A stretch of 64,000 bases of DNA from a virus (Duplodnaviria > Caudoviricetes): positions 128,001-192,000 of IMG/VR virus record IMGVR_UViG_3300043434_000734. One strand, 5' to 3'. This document shows, one piece after another, positions 16,027 to 24,970 of the stretch (position 1 is its first letter; every line of letters starts with the position of its first letter). The notes under the pieces are model-generated. The model made no database searches. It saw only the letters and a program-made list of their open reading frames with translations, and was not told where the DNA came from. The translations under genes were made by a program, and so were the position numbers.

Positions 16027-16099
16027 TGGAATGTAGCTCAATGGTGAGAGCATCCGCCTGATACGCGGAAGGTTATAAGTTCGAGTCTTATCATTCCAA
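16027..16099 (+). tRNA. trnI: tRNA-Ile(GAT)
   Basis: tccgc-ctgatac-gcgga; full cloverleaf. Confidence 0.92.
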
Positions 16100-16104
16100 C
16101 ATTG

Positions 16105-16177
16105 GGAACTTTGGTATAGCCGGTGCGTACGTTGGACTGAAAATCCGAAGGAACAAGTTCGATTCTTGTAGGTTCCA
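16105..16177 (+). tRNA. trnF: tRNA-Phe(GAA)
   Basis: ttgga-ctgaaaa-tccga. Confidence 0.9.
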
Positions 16178-16240
16178 CAAATAAAGTAAAATTTGAACGA
16201 TAAAGTTAATCACTTTATTAAACAGAAATAACTTTATTAT

Positions 16241-16314
16241 GACCTCTTAGCTCAGTTGGTTAGAGCACCTCACTTTTAATGAGGGAGTCCCGCGTTCGAG
16301 TCGCGGAGGGGTCA
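16241..16314 (+). tRNA. trnK: tRNA-Lys(TTT)
   Basis: cctca-cttttaa-tgagg. Confidence 0.93.
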
Positions 16315-16319
16315 CACAC

Positions 16320-16392
16320 ACGGGTATGGTGAAAATGGTTATCATTTTAGTCTCCAAAACTAAAGTTCCTGATTCGAGTTCAGGTATCCGTG
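16320..16392 (+). tRNA. trnW: tRNA-Trp(CCA)
   Basis: ttagt-ctccaaa-actaa. Confidence 0.88.
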
Positions 16393-16453
16393 CAAATGTT
16401 CGATTTTTTTAGTCCGTTTCGAACTTTCGTGATATTTATAAATAAAGAACATT

Positions 16454-16993
16454 ATGAAAGAAGAAATATTAAAATTAAGAAATGAAGGTAAAACATTTAA
16501 CCAAATAAAAGAAATAATAAAATGTTCTAAATCTACAATTTCATATTATTGTAGTGAAGGGCAAAAAGAAAAAACAAAAATTAGAACTAAAAAGAGGAGA
16601 GAAAACATTATAATTGATAAATTAGAAAGATTTAAATATAGAAAATCTAAATCGAATAAAGAACGAATTAGAAAATTCAATAAAAGAGATAATCAAATGG
16701 ATGGATTAGTTAACAAAAAAATAGAAATTACATTCACATTTGAAGATGTTATCAAGAAGTTTGGTTATAGTACTGTTTGTTATCTTTCCGGAGAAAAAAT
16801 AAATTTAAATGAAAACACATACCATTTTGACCATATTTTACCATCAAGTAGAGGTGGTGATAACACATTAGAAAATTTAGGTGTTACACACGAAATTGTA
16901 AATAAAATGAAAGGGGACTTAACACCAAAGGAACTTATTCTTTGGTGTGAAAAAATTTTGAAATATAATGGATATGATGTAAATAAAATTTAA
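16454..16993 (+). CDS. HTH + HNH endonuclease (probable homing endonuclease) inside the tRNA array
   Basis: N-terminal HTH (GKTFNQIKEIIKCSKSTISYY); CYLSG..FDHILPSSRGGDNTLENL..VNKMKG; own TATTTATA at 16433. Confidence 0.85.
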   Translation: MKEEILKLRNEGKTFNQIKEIIKCSKSTISYYCSEGQKEKTKIRTKKRRENIIIDKLERFKYRKSKSNKERIRKFNKRDNQMDGLVNKKIEITFTFEDVIKKFGYSTVCYLSGEKINLNENTYHFDHILPSSRGGDNTLENLGVTHEIVNKMKGDLTPKELILWCEKILKYNGYDVNKI

Positions 16994-17039
16994 TATTATG
17001 AAAAAAGAATTCGATATGCATTAGTTAAACTAATCGCAT

Positions 17040-17243
17040 ATGACAAACAAAGAGTACAGAGTAAAGAGAATGAAACAATCACACGATTATTGTTTCATAT
17101 GTCAGAAGAGAAATGGAAGTTGGTATTATGATTGCTCCCCAACTTTTGTTCACGGAAGACACGGTAATGGGAAACCGATTGAATCTCATAAAAGAAGAGA
17201 GTATAGAAGTTGGAAGTACAACAGAAAAACTCAATGGAAGTAA
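17040..17243 (+). CDS. Small basic Cys/His-containing hypothetical protein
   Basis: ORF track; CFIC..C..H. Confidence 0.5.
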   Translation: MTNKEYRVKRMKQSHDYCFICQKRNGSWYYDCSPTFVHGRHGNGKPIESHKRREYRSWKYNRKTQWK

Positions 17244-17272
17244 TGTTTACTATTAACAGTAAACAGTAAACG

Positions 17273-17344
17273 GGTCTCTTGGTGTAACGGATAGCACGAA
17301 ACACTACGGATGTTTTAGTAAGGGTTCAAATCCTTTAGAGACCT
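17273..17344 (+). tRNA. trnR: tRNA-Arg(ACG)
   Basis: aaaca-ctacgga-tgttt. Confidence 0.88.
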
Positions 17345-17405
17345 CAATGTTCACAAATTTTTAATGTTCACGTTCCGTGAACAAACAAAAAAAGTGAACA
17401 AAAAA

Positions 17406-17476
17406 GTCAGGTTGGCCGAGCGGCTAGGTGAAGGTCTGCAAAACCTTTAAGATAGGTTCGACTCCTATACTTGACT
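17406..17476 (+). tRNA. trnC: tRNA-Cys(GCA)
   Basis: aaggt-ctgcaaa-acctt. Confidence 0.92.
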
Positions 17477-17481
17477 CTTAT

Positions 17482-17553
17482 GGTGTTTGAAGCTTTAAGG
17501 TGAAGCACGAGTTTGTGGAGCTCGGGAAGACGGTTCGATACCGTTCATACACC
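17482..17553 (+). tRNA. trnH: tRNA-His(GTG)
   Basis: cgagt-ttgtgga-gctcg; G-1:C73. Confidence 0.88.
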
Positions 17554-17558
17554 CATAT

Positions 17559-17629
17559 TGCGGGGAGGAAGGTTCCCGACCAGTCTCATAAGCTGTGTCT
17601 CCCGAGTTCGATTCTCGGCCCCGCAACCA
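17559..17629 (+). tRNA. trnM: tRNA-Met(CAT) with shortened D-arm, CCA encoded
   Basis: tgcgggg/ccccgca acceptor stem; ctcataa loop. Confidence 0.75.
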
Positions 17630-17680
17630 AAAAGTTTTAAAAATAATTTGAAATAATTTCGGATATTCGTATTTATTTCT

Positions 17681-17688
17681 TACATTTG
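17681..17688 (+). promoter_or_regulatory. Bacteroidota -7 promoter box
   Basis: TACATTTG. Confidence 0.6.
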
Positions 17689-17709
17689 TAAAACAATAAT
17701 GACAGAAAA

Positions 17710-17838
17710 ATGGCGAAAGCACCGAGAACATCGAAAAGAGTTGGTAAAGTGGCAAGTAAAGCATTAAGAAGTAAAAAAAGTAGCAAGACAACAAAAACTC
17801 TTGCGGGAAGTTCTTTGAGACAACGGAGAAAAAAGTAA
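17710..17838 (+). CDS. Small highly basic protein (42 aa, MAKAPRTSKRVGKVASKALRSKKSSKTTKTLAGSSLRQRRKK)
   Basis: Read directly from sequence; promoter upstream; not in the ORF track. Confidence 0.65.
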   Translation: MAKAPRTSKRVGKVASKALRSKKSSKTTKTLAGSSLRQRRKK

Positions 17839-17843
17839 AATAA

Positions 17844-17915
17844 GCCTCTTAAGCATTGCAGGCGATGCGCCAGATTTGTAATCTGGATAACTCGGTTCGA
17901 TTCCGGGCGGAGGCT
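17844..17915 (+). tRNA. trnT: tRNA-Thr(TGT)
   Basis: ccaga-tttgtaa-tctgg. Confidence 0.88.
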
Positions 17916-18376
17916 CAACAAGTGACGACTGTGGTGTAACCCCACGGTATATAAATCCCAAAGAACTGTCTTGATTCGCGATATCAGAGCAGTGAGGGTA
18001 GAGTTTACTATAAGCGGGGAGTAATTAACCCAATGCGAAAATGTAACCACCAAGTGTAGAGATATATTTGGTTATGATGTACAGAAGGGTACAAAAAACT
18101 TGTTAATTTATTAATTTAGATTCTGATAACTTATAACTAAAGTTTTACTTAAACAAAGGTTATGGAGCAATTTGAGAAATGTTGTTATCACTAAGAATGT
18201 AAATTAATAAAGTTTGATTACGTTAGGTATGTAGTTTAAAAAGAACAATGTCCTAATAGATGAAGGTGTGAGTAATCACCTTACTTAACGTAATTTAAAT
18301 TTAAAACTAACTCAACGAGGACTTTGTTAACCAGAGCAAGACTTGGATGGTGCAACTTAAGGTGAGTTAGAATTTT

Positions 18377-18448
18377 GGTCCTGTAGTTAATCGGCTATAA
18401 TATTGCCCTGTCACGGCAAAGTGCCGGGTTCGATTCCCGGTGGGACCG
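18377..18448 (+). tRNA. trnD: tRNA-Asp(GTC)
   Basis: ttgcc-ctgtcac-ggcaa. Confidence 0.92.
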
Positions 18449-18672
18449 CAATGAGTAAGAGATACTCAATAGTCTTTAATCCAAGACTCATTTAACAATG
18501 GATGGTGGTTTGTAGTATCAACCTTAACGACTGCATATTGGGAACAAGGATTGTGGACCTACTCTCCCCCAAGTATTAGGTTGACGTTTTAACAGAGGGA
18601 TGCCTCGCAGGTTTTTGAGACAGACAAAAAACCGAAGTAACTACTCATCAGGAATCTCAAGGTGGGGAAAAT

Positions 18673-18760
18673 GGAGAGATGGTAGAGTTGGTCTATTGCA
18701 CCTGACTTGAAATCAGGAGTACTCGTGAGGGTACCGTGGGTTCGAATCCTACTCTCTCCG
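18673..18760 (+). tRNA. trnS: tRNA-Ser(TGA) copy 1
   Basis: cctga-cttgaaa-tcagg; long variable arm; G73. Confidence 0.93.
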
Positions 18761-18876
18761 CTGTAGAGTTTGCCCGTGGTAACGGTCTGATAAGATACTT
18801 TCAGACTTCTCGCGTCAAAACCCAAAACACTGACCTACTGGTGCTTGGGCTAAATGTAGAAAAAAAACGGGATATT

Positions 18877-18964
18877 GGAGAGATGGCAGAGTTGGTCGAT
18901 TGCGTCAGACTTGAAATCTGAAGAACGGGAAACTGTTCCGTGGGTTCGAATCCTACTCTCTCCG
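18877..18964 (+). tRNA. trnS: tRNA-Ser(TGA) copy 2
   Basis: tcaga-cttgaaa-tctga; long variable arm; G73. Confidence 0.93.
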
Positions 18965-19004
18965 CGAACCAAAAGTCCAATGGGGAGGATCCACTACACG
19001 ATTA

Positions 19005-19204
19005 GCAATCGGAAGAGTAGATTAAGACTAAGGTTGCTTGACACTCCGGAAAGACGAGAAAACAATCAAGTAGAGTGGTGGTACACTCACTATGTATGCA
19101 TCGTAAGATGGACGCCTTCTTCCCGCAGAGCACATAGATATGTCGTTTAGTGATATGGAAGAACACGGGAACGATTTGTAGGTTCGAATCCTATCTTGAT
19201 TGCC
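19005..19204 (+). ncRNA. 200-nt RNA closed by a tRNA-like acceptor stem and T-arm
   Basis: GCAATCGG pairs with TTGATTGC; GTAGG-TTCGAAT-CCTAT; several internal hairpins. Confidence 0.55.
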
Positions 19205-19317
19205 TTTCCTTTCAGGGTAACGACCTGATAAATTTTGAGATACTAAAGTTGTAACACCAGGGACTCAACGAAAGAAAGTCGGAAACTAAACTTGACTGAT
19301 GGAAAGACATCAAATTT

Positions 19318-19447
19318 GGGAAGGTAGCAGAAATGGAAGATGCGTTATACGAAAGCTACGTATAAGACGCGATGACGGACACAAAAGTACAATGTGTTGA
19401 ACTAAAGATTACGCATCGTTATGGGTTCGATTCCCACTCCTGTCCCA
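19318..19447 (+). ncRNA. 130-nt tRNA-like RNA with non-canonical anticodon loop and giant variable arm
   Basis: GGGAAGG/CCTGTCCC, D-arm GCA-gaaatggaaga-TGC, TTATACG-aaagcta-CGTATAA, ATGGG-TTCGATT-CCCAC. Confidence 0.65.
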
Positions 19448-19648
19448 CAGGTCGTCTTTTTATATTGCTCAGTTTGTGGAGTTAACTTTAGAGACGTTAA
19501 ACTTAAAGTAATGAATCCAAGCCCTTTTAAAGTTGTGGTACAACTGGGTCCATTTCCTTACCGAAGGAGGTTTCCGGACCTAAAATAGAAGCCTCAAACG
19601 ACTGAAAAAAGTAGGGACATATGAGACTACCTAATCTCGTCCCGAAAT

Positions 19649-19720
19649 GGCCCTATCGACAAGCGGTTAAGTCACGTCCCTTTCACGGATGAGTCACGGG
19701 TTCGAATCCCGTTGGGGCTA
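19649..19720 (+). tRNA. trnE: tRNA-Glu(TTC)
   Basis: cgtcc-ctttcac-ggatg. Confidence 0.92.
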
Positions 19721-19735
19721 CTAAATGGTTTTACT

Positions 19736-19894
19736 ATGAAGAAGATTGTATTTTTATTGTTAGTAATGGTTACAATGAGTAGTTGTTTATATACAACATA
19801 TAGACGACCTTATTATCAACGATATCCGACTTATCAGAAACATTATCAACCAAATAAAAAATATAAACCTTACTTTAGACCAGGTCGTTGGTAA
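19736..19894 (+). CDS. Small Tyr/Pro/Arg-rich lipoprotein
   Basis: MKKIVFLLLVMVTMSSC lipobox; ATG at 19736. Confidence 0.65.
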   Translation: MKKIVFLLLVMVTMSSCLYTTYRRPYYQRYPTYQKHYQPNKKYKPYFRPGRW

Positions 19895-19948
19895 AAAATA
19901 TTTACTATTAAATTGAATTTTTATATATTTGTATATACTTATTAAGAA

Positions 19949-20053
19949 ATGAAGAACATAAATAACATATTGTCACTTAGTACTAGACCATTAAATAATG
20001 GTAACGGGTATGGTGTGCAACCCGTGAATTTATGTTCGGATACTCATATTTAG
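19949..20053 (+). CDS. Putative leader peptide (34 aa, MKNINNILSLSTRPLNNGNGYGVQPVNLCSDTHI)
   Basis: Between TATATTTG (19924-19931) and a terminator. Confidence 0.5.
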   Translation: MKNINNILSLSTRPLNNGNGYGVQPVNLCSDTHI

Positions 20054-20077
20054 AAATTTAATTAATTAAAATATAGA

Positions 20078-20111
20078 CCCGAACGACTTAAAAAATTGTT
20101 CGGGTTTTTTT
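20078..20111 (+). terminator. Intrinsic terminator / attenuator
   Basis: CCCGAAC..GTTCGGG plus T7. Confidence 0.8.
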
Positions 20112-20128
20112 ATGTTATTTTTTTTCTT

Positions 20129-20154
20129 TATATTTGAAATGTAGTTCTTTGACA
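20129..20154 (+). promoter_or_regulatory. Bacteroidota -7 box followed by boxA-like element
   Basis: TATATTTG 20129-20136; GTTCTTTGACA 20144-20154. Confidence 0.65.
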
Positions 20155-20169
20155 TTGTGGAAATGATTT

Positions 20170-20254
20170 GCTCGGGTGGTGTAATGGTAGCCACGAGGGA
20201 CTTAAAATCCCTTGGACAGAAACGTCCGTGCCGGTTCGAGTCCGGCCCCGAGTA
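20170..20254 (+). tRNA. trnL: tRNA-Leu(TAA)
   Basis: aggga-cttaaaa-tccct; long variable arm. Confidence 0.93.
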
Positions 20255-20369
20255 CAATGTAATGACTTAGAAATAAGTGACGGAACAGACGCTATGTATG
20301 AAATGGAAACGTTTGAAACATTTTAAAGATGTTGATTCGACACAAACCGTACAGACATTACATTAAATT

Positions 20370-20443
20370 GGTCCAATAGCTCAGCTGGATAGAGCAACTC
20401 TCTTCTAAAGAGTAGGTCTCAGGTTCGAATCCTGATTGGATCA
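20370..20443 (+). tRNA. trnR: tRNA-Arg(TCT)
   Basis: actct-cttctaa-agagt. Confidence 0.93.
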
Positions 20444-20588
20444 CGAAGATAATGGTTTTCACCACCTTACGGATGTCGACAATCCACGGTGGAATCTGAA
20501 AACAGCACCCTCTGCCGAGCGCTCGTAAAACTACGATTAAGCAGTTAAGATTGGAACGAGACGGGTATTCCAACATTATCTTTATTTT

Positions 20589-20661
20589 AGAGTAGTTGAC
20601 CAATCGGTAGGTCCCTTGCTTTGGGAGCAAGTGTGTGTAGGTTCGAGTCCTGTCTACTCTA
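20589..20661 (+). tRNA. trnP: tRNA-Pro(TGG)
   Basis: cttgc-tttggga-gcaag. Confidence 0.9.
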
Positions 20662-20668
20662 CAAAAAC

Positions 20669-20740
20669 GTTGGTATAGCTTAATGGTGAAGCATTCGGCT
20701 GTTAACCGAAAGACTGTAGGTTCGAGCCCTACTACCAACG
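20669..20740 (+). tRNA. trnN: tRNA-Asn(GTT)
   Basis: ttcgg-ctgttaa-ccgaa. Confidence 0.92.
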
Positions 20741-20747
20741 CAAAAAT

Positions 20748-20824
20748 ACCCGTATGGCGGAATTGGCATACGCGTCAGATTTAGGATCTGAATTTTGTAG
20801 GTTCGAGTCCTACTATGGGTACCA
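20748..20824 (+). tRNA. trnL: tRNA-Leu(TAG) lacking the long variable arm, CCA encoded
   Basis: tcaga-tttagga-tctga; 5-nt variable loop. Confidence 0.85.
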
Positions 20825-20869
20825 GGGATTGGTTGACACTAAACAACAAAACCAAAAGGAAGTGTAAAA

Positions 20870-20954
20870 TTGGAGGATGGGTGAGTGGCTAAAACCGGCA
20901 GACTGTAAATCTGCTCTCAGAACGGGTACGGGGGTTCGAATCCCTCTCCTCCAA
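20870..20954 (+). tRNA. trnY: tRNA-Tyr(GTA)
   Basis: gcaga-ctgtaaa-tctgc; long variable arm. Confidence 0.93.
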
Positions 20955-20968
20955 CAAAAACAAAAACT

Positions 20969-21616
20969 ATGGCAACATTAGAAACACAGTACAAGAATTA
21001 CTTAAAGTTGAATCCAGATTCAACATTCACATTTGAAGAATGGAAAGAAGATTTCGGTGGTAACGTGCTTAGACAAATGTCCGATATCTTAAAAGAAATC
21101 AAAACTCCTGAATATAAAGAAAGACGTATTAAGGAACACGAAGAACGTCTTAAAAATATTACAATGGATTATCAATTGGGACAATACGTTGGTGAGTACA
21201 TTGTAAGTCACAATCTTCCAACATTATCGACCGATATGATTCACTCTAATCGTGTGATTAAAGTGTCTGACGAAGAACAAACTGAATGTGAAAGATTGGA
21301 TGGTGAATATGTTAAATCATTGGAAGCCAATCAATGGAAAAATGGTGATAGTGAATTATTTGAAGCGTGGAAACAATATCGTAAGGTATTGGAAAAGAAA
21401 TATCTTCCACAAGTTTTAGAGTGTCATCTTAGTTTAATAAGAATTGATGACATAGTAAAATTTAAAGAAGGTTTATCTGATTGTCTTTGGAATTGTGATA
21501 TGTGTTCTTATGACATCAAAGAAGAAAACATCACAATTGAAAATGATTTACTTAACGGATTTACAATTATCAAATTTCAATATGATTCGAGTTGTAATGA
21601 TGAAATGAAAAAATAA
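20969..21616 (+). CDS. Hypothetical protein within the tRNA array
   Basis: 215-aa ORF with phage-like codon usage. Confidence 0.7.
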   Translation: MATLETQYKNYLKLNPDSTFTFEEWKEDFGGNVLRQMSDILKEIKTPEYKERRIKEHEERLKNITMDYQLGQYVGEYIVSHNLPTLSTDMIHSNRVIKVSDEEQTECERLDGEYVKSLEANQWKNGDSELFEAWKQYRKVLEKKYLPQVLECHLSLIRIDDIVKFKEGLSDCLWNCDMCSYDIKEENITIENDLLNGFTIIKFQYDSSCNDEMKK

Positions 21617-21667
21617 AATATCGTTTAAATATACGATATACGATTTTATCGTCTTAATAAACGATAT

Positions 21668-21741
21668 GGACTTGTAGCTCAGTAGGTTAGAGCAACTGAC
21701 TCATAATCAGTAGGTCCCTGGTTCGAGCCCAGGCTGGTCCA
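21668..21741 (+). tRNA. trnI: tRNA-CAT (probably Ile2/lysidine type)
   Basis: actga-ctcataa-tcagt; Ile2-like body. Confidence 0.8.
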
Positions 21742-21802
21742 CAAAGAGATTAGGATATTCCTTACCCGTCGCCTCGGGATGACATCGTCAGTCTCTTTAC
21801 AT

Positions 21803-21877
21803 AGAAGATTAGTTCAGTCGGTTCAGAGCATCTGTTTTACACACAGAAAGTCGGGGGTTCGAATCCCTCATCTTCTA
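21803..21877 (+). tRNA. trnV: tRNA-Val(TAC)
   Basis: tctgt-tttacac-acaga. Confidence 0.92.
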
Positions 21878-21946
21878 CAAAAAAATTGGGATTGGGTTAA
21901 TACTGATATGGAGGCAATTCCTGGTATTATCGCCGCCCAATTAAAT

Positions 21947-22022
21947 GCGAAAGTAGCTCAGTCGGTAGAGCACAACCTTGCCAAGGTTGGGGTCGCGAGT
22001 TCGAATCTCGTCTTTCGCTCCA
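21947..22022 (+). tRNA. trnG: tRNA-Gly(GCC), CCA encoded
   Basis: caacc-ttgccaa-ggttg. Confidence 0.95.
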
Positions 22023-22025
22023 TAT

Positions 22026-22098
22026 GCGAATATAGCTCAATTGGTAGAGCACTAGTTTTCCAAACTGGGGGTTGCAGGATCGTTCCCTGTTATTCGCT
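22026..22098 (+). tRNA. trnG: tRNA-Gly(TCC)
   Basis: ctagt-tttccaa-actgg; variant T-loop. Confidence 0.85.
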
Positions 22099-22192
22099 CA
22101 ACTCAAGTACCCATACCGCTAACGATGGGCTAAGTAAGATACAAATTCGTACCACATTATTGTGGAGGCGGGAAGTAGAATGCTTGAGACAC

Positions 22193-22263
22193 TGTCCTTT
22201 GGTGTAACGGTAACACAATCGTTTTTGGTGCGATTATTTTAGGTTCGAATCCTAAAGGGACAA
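22193..22263 (+). tRNA. trnQ: tRNA-Gln(TTG)
   Basis: atcgt-ttttggt-gcgat. Confidence 0.88.
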
Positions 22264-22278
22264 CTTAAATTTTTAAGT

Positions 22279-22509
22279 ATGAGTATTTTTGCAATTTACT
22301 ACGTAATATGTATTGCGTATTGTTTCTATCAATTAAATAAAAAATATAGAAACAGAGGTGTTGATTATGGAACATCACCAGAGTTAGATTCCATAATGGT
22401 TTTGGTTATGGCTTGGATTTTAGTGCCAATTGATGTGTCGATAACTTGGATACGAATGGTGAAAGAAGCAGAGGAGTCTAAAAGAAGACAAGAGAAACAA
22501 GTACTTTAA
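22279..22509 (+). CDS. Small two-TM membrane protein
   Basis: Two hydrophobic segments. Confidence 0.6.
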   Translation: MSIFAIYYVICIAYCFYQLNKKYRNRGVDYGTSPELDSIMVLVMAWILVPIDVSITWIRMVKEAEESKRRQEKQVL

Positions 22510-22570
22510 CTAGTGGGCCACGGTGGTAGGCCAAAAGAAAAATAGATGTTTTTCATCCACCAAATTTTAT

Positions 22571-22656
22571 AGAGAGTTACCCAAGTTGGTGAAGGGGCCT
22601 GTTTGCTAAACAGGTAGGATGTTAAAGTCGCAAGGGTTCGAGCCCCTTACTCTCTA
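22571..22656 (+). tRNA. trnS: tRNA-Ser(GCT)
   Basis: cctgt-ttgctaa-acagg; long variable arm. Confidence 0.9.
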
Positions 22657-22661
22657 CACAT

Positions 22662-22811
22662 TGTAGTGTGACGAAACTTGGCAGACGTGCCCTCCTGTCT
22701 CGGGGGTGTGGAACAAGAAATAGGTTAATAATATGGGGTAGACCACCAGCCGGCCGGCGAAGTGTTATTAACTGAATCTCCATTTAAGTGGTTCGAATCC
22801 CTTCACTACAG
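22662..22811 (+). ncRNA. 150-nt tRNA-like RNA with ~80-nt variable arm and pyrimidine-37 loop
   Basis: TGTAGTG/CACTACA+G; D-arm ACG-aaacttggcaga-CGT; CCCTC-ctgtctc-GGGGG; GTTAATAATAT/GTGTTATTAAC; GGTTCGAATCC. Confidence 0.7.
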
Positions 22812-22848
22812 CACTAATAAACCAATAATTATAATAAATGAAAAAGTA

Positions 22849-23310
22849 ATGAAAAAATTCAGAACTCTCCACGGAACCCCAATTCCAGATGTAATCAATT
22901 ACATTAGAGAGTATATTTCAACAAGAGAGGATGTGGAAATTCTCATAGGATCAGATTCACAATCATATTCAAACAGGAAAACTGTTTATGGTGTTGTTAT
23001 TGCCCTTTATACAAAAGGTAAGGGTGCACACGTATTATGTACACGTGAGACATTACCTATGGAATATAATGTGGCATCGAGATTACTTGGTGAAGTTTGG
23101 AAATCAATTGAGATTGCTGAATTTTTAAAAGAGAATGGTTTACCAAAACCTACTTGGATTGATATTGACTTAAATCCCGACCCAAAATACAAATCAAATA
23201 ATGTTCTTAGACAAGCAGTTGGTATGGTTGAGGGTATGGGTTATAAAGTAAGGTACAAACACGTAGGTGCGTTAATGACATATGCCGCAAATCATTTAGT
23301 TAGGTTATAA
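22849..23310 (+). CDS. YkuK/DUF458-like RNase H-fold protein
   Basis: ILIGSDSQ, YGVVIAL..KGKGAHV, RLLGEVWKS, IDIDLNPD, AANHL; ATG at 22849. Confidence 0.8.
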   Translation: MKKFRTLHGTPIPDVINYIREYISTREDVEILIGSDSQSYSNRKTVYGVVIALYTKGKGAHVLCTRETLPMEYNVASRLLGEVWKSIEIAEFLKENGLPKPTWIDIDLNPDPKYKSNNVLRQAVGMVEGMGYKVRYKHVGALMTYAANHLVRL

Positions 23311-23347
23311 TTTTGTTTTTTAAAATAATTCAATTACTTTTTATTAT

Positions 23348-23701
23348 ATGGTAAAACAACAAATTATAAATTTAACATATTCTTTAATGTTATTTTTACT
23401 CGGTTCGATAGGACATTGGTACATTATGTATTGGCAATTTAAAATGCCGAATTGGGTTAAGACCCCGTGGCCGTATTTGATATCAGTGGGTTGTACTTTT
23501 TTATGGATTACAGCATCCCATTATGGTGTTAAAGCATTCAACGGTGAAATGTGGAGTAATAGGTTTTTGTTCTTTGTAACAGGTATCATTATTGCGGCAA
23601 TGTTATATCCGTACCATTTCGGTCAACCATTTACAGTTAAAACGATGGTACAATTAATATTGGCATTTACCATAATATTAATTTCACTTTTTTGGAAATA
23701 G
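23348..23701 (+). CDS. Four-TM small membrane protein (SMR/EamA-like), paralogue of 62981-63319
   Basis: Shared AFNGEMWSNR / SFNGEIWPSR and PFTVKT / PLTLKT motifs. Confidence 0.6.
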   Translation: MVKQQIINLTYSLMLFLLGSIGHWYIMYWQFKMPNWVKTPWPYLISVGCTFLWITASHYGVKAFNGEMWSNRFLFFVTGIIIAAMLYPYHFGQPFTVKTMVQLILAFTIILISLFWK

Positions 23702-23752
23702 ATTTTTTTATTTGATTTTTATTTCTTATATTTTAATTATAAAGACAACAAT

Positions 23753-23980
23753 ATGAAATGTATTAAGGCAATTAAAGAAACTAAATCCTATTCATTAGGT
23801 GAAATTCGTAGAACTGATGACGTTGATGCTGACCAAAAAGTGGCTAGTGGTGTATGGACGTTTATTCCTAAATCAGAATGGAAAGTAAGTAAGAAAGGTA
23901 AAAAAGAAGAAGTGGAAATTACTCACGATATGGGTGGTTCTATTGAAGTAAAAAAAGAAAAGAAAAAAAATAAAAAATAA
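23753..23980 (+). CDS. Small Lys-rich hypothetical protein
   Basis: ORF track. Confidence 0.55.
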   Translation: MKCIKAIKETKSYSLGEIRRTDDVDADQKVASGVWTFIPKSEWKVSKKGKKEEVEITHDMGGSIEVKKEKKKNKK

Positions 23981-24015
23981 TTTAATTAATATTTTGTTTT
24001 TATAAAAAGTATTCG

Positions 24016-24052
24016 TACATTTGTAAAACAATAAGAGAAAAAGTTCTTTGAT
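24016..24052 (+). promoter_or_regulatory. Bacteroidota -7 box and boxA-like element
   Basis: TACATTTG 24016-24023; GTTCTTTGAT 24043-24052. Confidence 0.65.
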
Positions 24053-24060
24053 TTAAAAAT

Positions 24061-24870
24061 ATTGGCCGCCTATGGTCGATTAAAATAAACCACGAAAGTG
24101 GGATAAAGTGACGAGTCCTTGGTTGGGACAAGTTGCGGTTTCAGTAATGGAACTTGAGTAGGCAAGTGGAGTATCGTTGAACCTTAAGTACTGAGGGTAA
24201 CACTTTAGGGAAAGTGGTTTGATGACTGAGCAATCCGAGTTGTTTGGTTGAGGTGGGAACACCAATAAGAATAATCCATAGAGTTATTGTGAGAAATATG
24301 GTTATCCGACTATATGATTACGTGATTCAATATGATGGGAATCTTAAAACCGAAAGGTATGGTGAAGTACGAGTGGTGTCGTTATCATCCTTTATTAAAC
24401 TCTACCAAGGGTTTAGTTTTGAAGGGGTCCAAAAATATGGTAGCAGGGATGTTACAGAGAGTAGTTTAGTATCGAGTCGCTCAAAAGGTGGCTTGGCTAG
24501 GTGACGAACCACTACTTTCCAAATTCGGATAACTAAATTTTGTTAATTTTGGTTTAACAACTTAAAATCATACAAGAAAAAGTGTTCGTCAGTCGTTGTA
24601 GACAGGTGGCTACATAGTCGTGAGGGGTTCACGGCCACAAAGGGTCTCAAGCCCAATGTGATTTTTAAAAAAGTTCTCTAAACCCGCAAGGTTGAATCAG
24701 GGAGGCATCTTTGATGAGTAATGAGTATTAAAAGAGTATATAACGACTCAAGGATTGGTTAATCTAATTGACCGCCGCTGATTGGTACTACTCAAAAGGT
24801 AGTGGATATGGGAAGAATCAAATAATGTCCCTAAGTCAATCAAAAAATGGTGTAATCTCAGCCCTTTCTT
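24061..24870 (+). ncRNA. Large (~800 nt) structured ncRNA, GOLLD-like candidate
   Basis: G-rich, no credible ORF, many tetraloop hairpins (CCAC-GAAA-GTGG, ACC-GAAA-GGT, AGTCGC-TCAAAA-GGTGGCT, CTACT-CAAAA-GGTAG); own promoter and boxA; near the tRNA array. Confidence 0.6.
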
Positions 24871-24944
24871 TTTTCAATTTTGTGTAAAATTGAATGGTGG
24901 AATTAAGTACGATATTAAAAAACCGTGCGGCCCTCAACAAAATT

Positions 24945-24970
24945 AGTCAGGAGAAATTCTGACTTTTTTT
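24945..24970 (+). terminator. Intrinsic terminator
   Basis: AGTCAG-gagaaatt-CTGACT plus T-tract. Confidence 0.7.

What the first reader, a model, noticed from the sequence alone, without database searches (positions are those of the whole stretch)
24016..24970. About 800-nt ornate non-coding RNA with its own promoter, boxA and terminator
Seen: a G-rich island with many GNRA-like and CAAAA-loop hairpins and only short, non-credible ORFs. Known: GOLLD (about 800 nt) and ROOL RNAs occur in phages near tRNA genes and have no established function. Inference: a GOLLD-family member or a new large RNA class in a Bacteroidota phage.
Basis: partly seen in the sequence, partly recalled or inferred. Interest (0 to 1): 0.7.

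Follow-up and report, generated by a model that had tools for sequence, protein, structure and literature searches.

The report
GOLLD giant RNA gene in phage
This stretch is a full-length copy of GOLLD, a known 800-base phage RNA that builds hollow RNA cages and whose function is unknown; the one less ordinary point is that it is made behind the same leader signal that host bacteria use for ribosomal RNA.

Summary
Window 24457-24864 (+) matches Rfam GOLLD (RF02032) over the whole model at 314 bits (cut-off 150). There is no ROOL match.

- **5' domain:** 24064-24456 is the 5' domain of the same RNA. It is shared with two 635-642 kb uncultured phages and about 20 viral contigs.
- **Structure:** over the full length, 134 of 185 predicted pairs show compensatory changes.
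- **Coding:** ORF 24244-24504 is not conserved and is not coding.
- **Transcription unit:** it runs from a Bacteroidota-type -7 box (24016-24023), through a leader with GTTCTTTGA (24043-24051) and the roughly 800-nt GOLLD body, to a clade-specific 3' tail and an intrinsic terminator (24945-24970).
- **Leader signal:** the 9-mer is present in 20 of 21 related GOLLD leaders. It also lies upstream of 16S rRNA in 10 of 12 genomes sampled from the phylum of a MAG titled Bacteroidetes. It is therefore an rrn-type boxA.
- **Expression:** metatranscriptome contigs of 774 and 797 nt cover the GOLLD body but not the flanking ORFs.

Verdict: a new member of a known family. The boxA-GOLLD link is absent from the searchable literature, but this scan noted it before on another phage (e1-5339394). 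GOLLD's function remains unknown.

The parts
23993..23996 (+). TTTG, a candidate -33 element of a Bacteroidota-type promoter, 19 nt before the -7 box
   Evidence: Pattern match. Not above chance on its own.
24016..24023 (+). -7 box TACATTTG (TAnnTTTG); the transcript should start near 24029
   Evidence: A TAnnTTTG box lies 24-66 nt upstream of boxA in 19 of 21 related GOLLD loci. The start site is inferred, not mapped.
24043..24051 (+). boxA-like leader element GTTCTTTGA
   Evidence: Exact 9-mer in 20 of 21 related leaders, against a background of 0.025 per kb. The same or a one-off motif follows a TAnnTTTG box before tRNA-Leu 20170 and tmRNA 27436. The same motif lies 85-217 nt upstream of 16S in 10 of 12 sampled genomes of the phylum of a Bacteroidetes MAG.
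24064..24456 (+). GOLLD 5' domain (cap domain), about 393 nt. It includes a near-invariant CCGAAAGG hairpin at 24349-24358, read here as L11a.
   Evidence: nhmmer hits in 25 loci and alignment A2. RNAalifold gives 102 pairs, 72 with compensatory change.
24234..24239 (+). Hairpin loop of the 5' domain (UCCGAG) that pairs with 24524-24529 at the start of the linker
   Evidence: Three covarying variants among 22 sequences: CCGA/UCGG, GUGG/CCAC and GUAG/CUAC.
24457..24864 (+). GOLLD conserved 3' domain (P13/P14 to P27)
   Evidence: Rfam RF02032, 314.2 bits, cut-off 150, model 1-416 of 416. The helices covary.
24520..24580 (+). Variable single-stranded linker (J13/15) with no tRNA inside. It is closed by helix 24503-24513 / 24581-24590.
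   Evidence: The linker is poorly conserved and of variable length. The closing helix has 10 bp, 6 of them compensatory. ARAGORN finds no tRNA here.
24681..24693 (+). P21a hairpin. Its loop holds the self-complementary dinucleotide GC (24686-24687), the site of the symmetric kissing bridge B8 in the solved structure.
   Evidence: The window and most relatives have GC, L001 and L002 have CG, and four loci have AU; all are self-complementary. The feature is described in PMC12286853.
24865..24944 (+). Clade-specific 3' tail: a U-rich run, an A/U hairpin (24875-24892), a conserved RUGGUGGAAU (24894-24903), a covarying hairpin (24907-24911 / 24924-24928), then GGCCC
   Evidence: Shared by the window, L082/L060, L036, L090, L099 and L014. 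The second hairpin has six different stem sequences. Other relatives have tRNA-Met at this place.
24945..24970 (+). Intrinsic terminator: an 8-bp hairpin and a T-run. The next ORF's ATG is at 24971.

Best explanation
This is a stand-alone gene for a full-length GOLLD RNA of a large freshwater phage that infects Bacteroidota.

**Shown**
- The 3' domain fits the curated GOLLD model end to end.
- A 393-nt 5' domain, shared with many phage contigs, is heavily supported by compensatory base changes.
- The stretch is not protein-coding.
- RNA-derived contigs of about 0.8 kb cover the GOLLD body.

**Inferred**
1. Host RNA polymerase starts at a TAnnTTTG promoter near 24029.
2. The leader's GTTCTTTGA, identical to the boxA in 16S leaders of the host phylum, recruits NusB/NusE and the rRNA-type antitermination complex. 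This protects a long untranslated transcript from Rho and helps it fold as it is made (odds about 0.6).
3. Leader and 3' tail are trimmed off, leaving about 800 nt (24064-24864; odds about 0.5).
4. The RNA assembles with copies of itself into a closed cage like the 14-mer solved for GOLLD env-38. It keeps the elements that set that form apart (P11a, P21a with a self-complementary loop dinucleotide, P21b; odds about 0.7).
5. The cage serves the phage's translation take-over. It is placed and signalled like the phage's 24 tRNA genes and tmRNA (odds about 0.3; no function of GOLLD is known).

The confidence given is for the core claim, an expressed, full-length GOLLD gene with its own transcription unit. 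The inferred steps carry their own odds.
For: - **Family match:** Rfam RF02032 at 314.2 bits, E 1e-90, full model. The same hit occurs in 2 huge phages and in all 17 viral contigs tested.
- **5' domain:** homologues in 25 loci; 72 of 102 pairs are compensatory.
- **Full length:** 134 of 185 pairs are compensatory; 96% of cells are paired, against about 40% when partners are slid.
- **Coding:** the ORF is not conserved.
- **Leader:** the -7 box and boxA are conserved in 19 and 20 of 21 loci. The boxA 9-mer is in the 16S leaders of 10 of 12 sampled genomes. The same promoter-plus-boxA layout precedes tRNA-Leu and tmRNA in the window.
- **Terminator:**
- **RNA runs (four studies):** a 774-nt contig covers 24109-24882 with 1 mismatch. 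A 797-nt contig runs from the equivalent of 24065 to 24863. No contig covers 24922-25697.
- **Structural features of the env-38 type:**, with PMC12286853 and PMC12990946.
Against: - No function of GOLLD is established, so step 5 is a guess from neighbourhood.
- Contigs cannot show true RNA ends, strand or level, and the runs were chosen because they hold this stretch.
- NusB/NusE binding was not tested. The window lacks the hairpin that sits between the -7 box and boxA in most relatives.
- Ten GOLLD loci of another subtype lack the motif, so boxA is not general to GOLLD.
- The published L20 to J13/15 kissing pair could not be found clearly here.
- Oligomer number varies among GOLLDs from 10 to 14 (PMC12990946) and cannot be read from sequence.
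Confidence: 0.93

Rival explanations
1. A new class of large structured RNA unrelated to GOLLD.
For: The Rfam model covers only 24457-24864. The 5' 393 nt match no Rfam family.
Against: The 3' half is a full-length GOLLD match at twice the cut-off. GOLLD is defined as a conserved 3' domain plus a variable 5' domain (PMC12286853). The 5' domain is always joined to a GOLLD 3' domain in relatives.
Confidence: 0.01
2. The stretch encodes a small protein (86 aa, 24244-24504), and the hairpins are incidental.
For: An open frame with a TTG start exists.
Against: Relatives have lengths that are not multiples of three and 1-9 stops in that frame, and the other two frames carry stops as well. There is no third-position excess of change. 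The changes that occur keep base pairs instead.
Confidence: 0.01
3. GTTCTTTGA is not a Nus-factor site. It is instead a processing site or the site of a phage-encoded factor shared by the phage's stable-RNA genes.
For: The motif lies close to the mature 5' end in the window's clade (12 nt). RNA contigs do not include the leader. The boxB-like hairpin is missing in the window.
Against: The identical 9-mer sits in the 16S leaders of 10 of 12 sampled genomes of the host phylum. It fits the known boxA core: the gamma-proteobacterial consensus is GYTCTTTAANA (PMC5725501), and the tmRNA copy GTTCTTTAACA matches it perfectly. Its distance to GOLLD varies from 12 to about 90 nt, which argues against a fixed cleavage site.
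Confidence: 0.2
4. A decaying, non-functional GOLLD copy.
For: The window lacks the tRNA-Met that follows GOLLD in several relatives, and it lacks the leader hairpin.
Against: Its score of 314 bits is within the range of its relatives (280-323 bits). All helices are intact. Near-identical RNA-derived contigs exist (1 mismatch in 774 nt).
Confidence: 0.03

Closest known systems
GOLLD RNA (Rfam RF02032; Weinberg et al. 2009, cited from memory; env-38 14-mer cage, PDB 9MEE, Kretsch et al. 2025, PMC12286853)
   Same: - Size: about 801 nt against 833 nt.
- Two-domain plan: 393 + 408 nt against 420 + 413 nt.
- Full-length match of the 3' domain.
- A single-stranded variable linker.
- P11a with a GAAA loop, P21a with a self-complementary dinucleotide, and P21b.
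- A phage location beside tRNA genes.
   Different: - It has its own promoter with an rrn-type boxA leader. The searched library of papers (PubMed Central open-access papers and bioRxiv preprints) holds no paper linking GOLLD and boxA.
- There is no tRNA in the linker and none directly after the RNA. A clade-specific two-hairpin tail and a terminator stand there instead.
- The host phylum is Bacteroidota, and the carrier is a very large phage.
- Oligomer state is untested.
GOLLD of Streptococcus agalactiae (12-mer, PDB 9L0R; reviewed in PMC12990946)
   Same: The same family and the same 3' domain core.
   Different: The Streptococcus RNA lacks P9, P11a-c and P21b. The window's RNA has P11a and P21b, so it is nearer to the env-38 type.
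Bacterial rrn operon leader (boxB-boxA-boxC; NusB/NusE/NusA/NusG/SuhB antitermination complex)
   Same: The same 9-mer as in 16S leaders of the host phylum, placed shortly after the promoter of a long untranslated structured RNA. Most relatives also have a hairpin just before it.
   Different: It drives a phage RNA, not rRNA. The window has no boxB-like hairpin. Binding and antitermination were not tested.
ROOL RNA (the other cage-forming phage RNA)
   Same: Large, ornate, phage-borne, near tRNA genes, and forms RNA-only cages (PMC12286853).
   Different: No Rfam ROOL match anywhere in the window. Its sequence and fold are unrelated.

Membership tests
GOLLD RNA (RF02032) | Match to the curated covariance model above its gathering score, over the whole model | tested here: met
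   314.2 bits against 150, E 1e-90, model 1-416 of 416, no truncation.
GOLLD RNA (RF02032) | Conserved 3' domain helices supported by covariation | tested here: met
   Most helices between 24457 and 24830 have compensatory pairs. Examples: 9 of 9 in 24473-24481/24487-24495 and 9 of 10 in 24591-24600/24739-24748.
GOLLD RNA (RF02032) | Structured but less conserved 5' domain of about 400 nt, joined to the 3' domain; total about 800 nt | tested here: met
   393 nt; 102 pairs, 72 compensatory; always contiguous with a GOLLD 3' domain in 20 relatives. Total 801 nt.
GOLLD RNA (RF02032) | Variable single-stranded linker (J13/15) after the first 3'-domain hairpin | tested here: met
   24520-24580 is A/U-rich, unalignable and of variable length. 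It is closed by a covarying helix.
GOLLD RNA (RF02032) | Self-complementary dinucleotide in loop L21a (symmetric kissing bridge B8) | tested here: met
   GC in the window; CG and AU in relatives; all self-complementary. Feature taken from PMC12286853.
GOLLD RNA (RF02032) | Kissing pair between L20 and J13/15 (bridge B7) | tested here: inconclusive
   Only 4-5 nt matches that partly overlap stem bases were found. The linker cannot be aligned.
GOLLD RNA (RF02032) | Phage or prophage location near tRNA genes | tested here: met
   24 tRNA genes at 16027-22657 and a tmRNA at 27436-27839, on the same strand. Relatives are on viral contigs and in 635-642 kb phages.
GOLLD RNA (RF02032) | Assembly into an RNA-only homo-oligomeric cage | not testable with these tools
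   Needs mass photometry or cryo-EM of the transcript.
ROOL RNA | Match to the Rfam ROOL model | tested here: not met
   No hit at the gathering score in the window, nor at E up to 1 in 23700-25300.
rrn-type boxA antitermination signal | Sequence identical to the boxA of rrn leaders of the host group, in the 5' leader after the promoter | tested here: met
   GTTCTTTGA lies 19 nt after the -7 box. The same motif lies 85-217 nt upstream of 16S in 10 of 12 sampled genomes, one of them as GTTCTTTAA. That these genomes are Bacteroidota rests on the record title of L122.
rrn-type boxA antitermination signal | Binding of NusB-NusE and read-through of terminators | not testable with these tools
   Needs gel-shift and reporter assays.

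The most novel reading that the evidence does not exclude
In large Bacteroidota phages, GOLLD belongs to a phage 'stable-RNA regulon' with the tRNA blocks and tmRNA. Each unit starts with a host-type promoter and an rrn boxA. The host's rRNA antitermination and chaperone complex would then be needed to fold and assemble the GOLLD cage as it is transcribed, and the cage would act in the phage's take-over of translation. This would give the first experimental handle on how GOLLD is made and, through its co-regulated partners, on what it does.
Probability: 0.4. Interest if true: 0.55.

Novelty: new member of a known kind. Interest (0 to 1): 0.3.

Why it matters
GOLLD is one of the largest bacterial or phage non-coding RNAs, and its function is still unknown 17 years after its description, despite the cage structures solved in 2025. 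This copy adds no new kind of RNA.

It does show three things. The env-38-type GOLLD is carried by very large freshwater phages of Bacteroidota. It appears as RNA contigs of about 0.8 kb in lake metatranscriptomes. In this subfamily it is transcribed behind the host's rRNA-type boxA, like the phage's tRNA and tmRNA units.

That link is testable in Flavobacterium-type hosts, and it ties GOLLD biogenesis to a known machine. It is not in the searchable literature, although this scan had already noted it on another phage.

Tried and rejected
- **ROOL or any other Rfam family over 23700-25300:** nothing besides GOLLD.
- **Whole genome of the window:** none is held.
- **Near-identical phage records:** megablast of 20 kb found only tRNA-sized matches.
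- **Host assignment through prophage copies:** the 22-base 5'-domain pattern hit only three short MAG contigs of 0.5-5.9 kb in 185,579 genomes. These are probably phage fragments binned with bacteria, so they give no host. The Bacteroidetes MAG holds no full GOLLD.
- **Pfam and PHROGs on nine flanking and ten large ORFs:** an RNaseH-like domain, a metallophosphoesterase and glycosyltransferases, but no phage hallmark protein.
- **The 3' tail as a decayed tRNA:** ARAGORN finds none. The resemblance to the tRNA-like gene of LR756502 in the MAFFT alignment is a short A/T-rich run. Rejected as unsupported.
- **RNAalifold on the tail:** it failed because MAFFT misaligns the variable hairpins. Single-sequence folds and reading by eye show them.
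- **L20 to J13/15 kissing pair:** not resolved.
- **A 5'-GGC / 3'-GCC closing pair (24064-24066 with 24861-24864):** proposed by RNAalifold, but it is invariant and competes with the model's last hairpin. Not counted.
- **boxA in ten GOLLD loci of another subtype:** absent.
- **Parts of the laid stretch without RNA contigs:** these are not evidence of silence.

Full report
**What is there.** The stretch stands out from its A/T-rich surroundings. It has 37-39% G+C and a strong excess of G over C, against 19-28% G+C in the flanks. It holds only short ORFs. A scan of the whole window against Rfam gives one large hit: GOLLD (RF02032) at 24457-24864 on the + strand. The hit scores 314.2 bits against a gathering score of 150, with E 1e-90, and covers model positions 1-416 of 416. 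A permissive scan of 23700-25300 finds nothing else, and there is no ROOL match. The same scan finds 25 tRNA hits upstream, all on the + strand, and a tmRNA at 27436-27839. ARAGORN tRNA genes at 16027-22657.

**The 5' half.** The Rfam model covers only the conserved 3' domain of GOLLD. The 393 nt before it (24064-24456) match, by blastn, two uncultured phages of 642 and 635 kb, LR756502 and LR745206. Each of these has a full-length GOLLD hit directly after the matching part. An exact-word scan of viral contigs, followed by nhmmer, gave about 20 further distinct loci with both domains. These include contigs of 250-300 kb. All 17 that I passed through Rfam are full-length GOLLD at 198-323 bits. 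The window's RNA is 85-86% identical to its nearest relatives and 58% identical to the two huge phages.

**Structure.**
- On 21 aligned 5' domains, RNAalifold predicts 102 pairs, and 72 of them keep pairing through changes on both sides.
- On 22 full-length sequences it predicts 185 pairs, 134 of them compensatory. 96% of cells are paired, against 37-43% when the 3' partners are slid by 1-3 columns.
- The helix 24503-24513 / 24581-24590 (6 compensatory pairs) closes the unalignable A/U-rich linker 24520-24580. This is the J13/15 of the literature, and here it holds no tRNA.
- A hairpin loop of the 5' domain (24234-24239) covaries with the first bases of the linker (24524-24529) in three variants. 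I could not tell whether this pairing lies within one chain or between chains, nor whether it has been described.

**Comparison with the solved structures.** The references are Kretsch et al. 2025 (PMC12286853) and the review PMC12990946.
- The window has a near-invariant CCGAAAGG hairpin at 24349-24358, which I read as L11a.
- It has both P21a and P21b.
- The L21a loop holds GC. Relatives have CG or AU at that position. All are self-complementary, as the symmetric kissing bridge B8 requires.
- These are traits of the env-38 type, which forms a 14-mer. They are not traits of the reduced Streptococcus type, which forms a 12-mer.
- The L20 to J13/15 kissing pair could not be confirmed.

**Not coding.** The longest ORF (24244-24504, 86 aa) is not kept in relatives. 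Their homologous stretches differ in length by amounts that are not multiples of three. They carry stops in all three frames, and diversity is no higher at third codon positions.

**The transcription unit.** Upstream lies TTTG (23993-23996), then 19 nt, then TACATTTG (24016-24023). This is the -33/-7 pattern of Bacteroidota promoters (pattern recalled from my own knowledge; match). Such matches are not rarer than chance in this window, so the support comes from comparison. 19 of 21 related loci have a TAnnTTTG box 24-66 nt upstream of an exact GTTCTTTGA, and 20 of 21 have that 9-mer within 200 nt of the GOLLD start. The background is 0.025 per kb.

In the window, the same two elements also precede tRNA-Leu (20170) and, as GTTCTTTAA, the tmRNA (27436). 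An exact copy also lies before tRNA-Thr at 17844.

To test the 'boxA' reading I used a MAG titled 'uncultured Bacteroidetes bacterium', which holds a fragment of this GOLLD subtype. I sampled 20 genomes of its phylum and read the 16S leaders of the 12 that have a 16S gene. Ten of the 12 have GTTCTTTGA, one of them as GTTCTTTAA, 85-217 nt upstream of the 16S 5' end. The motif also fits the known boxA core: the gamma-proteobacterial consensus is GYTCTTTAANA (PMC5725501).

So the leader carries the rrn-type boxA of the host phylum. Most relatives also have a small hairpin between the -7 box and boxA; the window does not. Ten GOLLD loci of another subtype lack the motif.

**The 3' end.** After the last GOLLD hairpin comes, in order:
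- a U-rich run;
- an A/U hairpin (24875-24892);
- a conserved RUGGUGGAAU;
- a second hairpin (24907-24911 / 24924-24928), whose stem has six different sequences in six relatives;
- GGCCC;
- an intrinsic terminator (24945-24964 plus a T-run).

This tail is particular to the window's clade. In five other relatives a tRNA-Met gene follows GOLLD within 10-20 nt, and LR756502 has an aberrant tRNA-like gene there.

**Expression.** Twenty public runs hold the stretch. Six of them are freshwater metatranscriptomes from different studies. I laid the contigs of four RNA runs on 22400-28200.
- One run has a 774-nt contig on 24109-24882 with a single mismatch.
- Another has a 797-nt contig of a close relative. 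It starts at the equivalent of 24065 and ends at 24863, which is the GOLLD body without leader or tail.
- Contigs also lie on the tmRNA and on 22594-22787.
- The ORFs in between have none, or only low-depth pieces.
- Contigs cannot prove ends, strand or level, and the runs were found with this stretch. I take this only as support that an RNA of about 0.8 kb exists, with a weak hint that leader and tail are removed.

**Host and carrier.** No whole genome is held for the window, and flanking proteins are uninformative. The phage reading rests on the viral contigs and huge phages that carry the same subtype, and on the tRNA array with a tmRNA. The Bacteroidota reading rests on the promoter type and on Al-Shayeb et al. 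2020, who predict Bacteroidetes hosts for their >634 kb phages (PMC7162821).

**How it most likely works.** See Best explanation. Membership, structure, non-coding nature and an RNA product are shown. The promoter start site, Nus-factor use, end trimming, cage formation and a role in translation take-over are inferred, with falling odds in that order.

**Novelty.** GOLLD, its phage location and its association with tRNA arrays are all known. This is a new member of the family. No paper in the searchable library links GOLLD and boxA; the four hits for both words are plant papers. The scan itself had already reported the link on another lake phage (e1-5339394) and on this genome (e1-5404976, e1-5404993). 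I reached it independently and tested it.

Noticed in passing
window 27380-27839: The tmRNA (27436-27839, tag GNVYNNMEIAGLLATSKVAA) has its own terminator-promoter-boxA leader: TACCTTTG, 7 nt, then GTTCTTTAACA, a perfect match to the gamma-proteobacterial boxA consensus. A tmRNA lies within about 3 kb of GOLLD in seven loci (window, L090, L060, L014, L033, L083, L118). It is on the same strand in four and convergent in three.
   Followed up: partly
L118 1523-1597, L085 4748-4822, L033 2348-2421, L083 8271-8343, L039 1505-1577; L001 3820-3893: In five related phage contigs a tRNA-Met (CAT) gene follows the GOLLD 3' end within 10-20 nt on the same strand. LR756502 has a tRNA-like gene with an abnormal anticodon loop at that place. 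The window has a two-hairpin tail there instead.
   Followed up: partly
window 17810-17818: A fourth exact GTTCTTTGA lies 26 nt before tRNA-Thr (17844), with no recognisable TAnnTTTG box in the 70 nt upstream.
   Followed up: no
L027 837-912: A Pistol ribozyme (RF02679, 69 bits) lies about 360 nt from a GOLLD of the other subtype, on the same strand.
   Followed up: no
window 22594-22787: RNA-run contigs pile up on the end of the tRNA array, over tRNA-Ser 22571-22657 and the stretch after it.
   Followed up: no
window 22762-23310: An ORF with an RNaseH-like domain (PF04308, E 1e-17) lies between the tRNA array and GOLLD. The ORF right after the GOLLD terminator (24971-25624, 217 aa, 19-28% G+C) matches no family.
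   Followed up: no
L121 (CAYTMO010000047.1), L123 (JALRFG010000313.1): Fragments of this phage GOLLD subtype sit on short contigs binned into a Saccharibacteria MAG and a Methylocystis MAG. These are probably binning errors.
   Followed up: no
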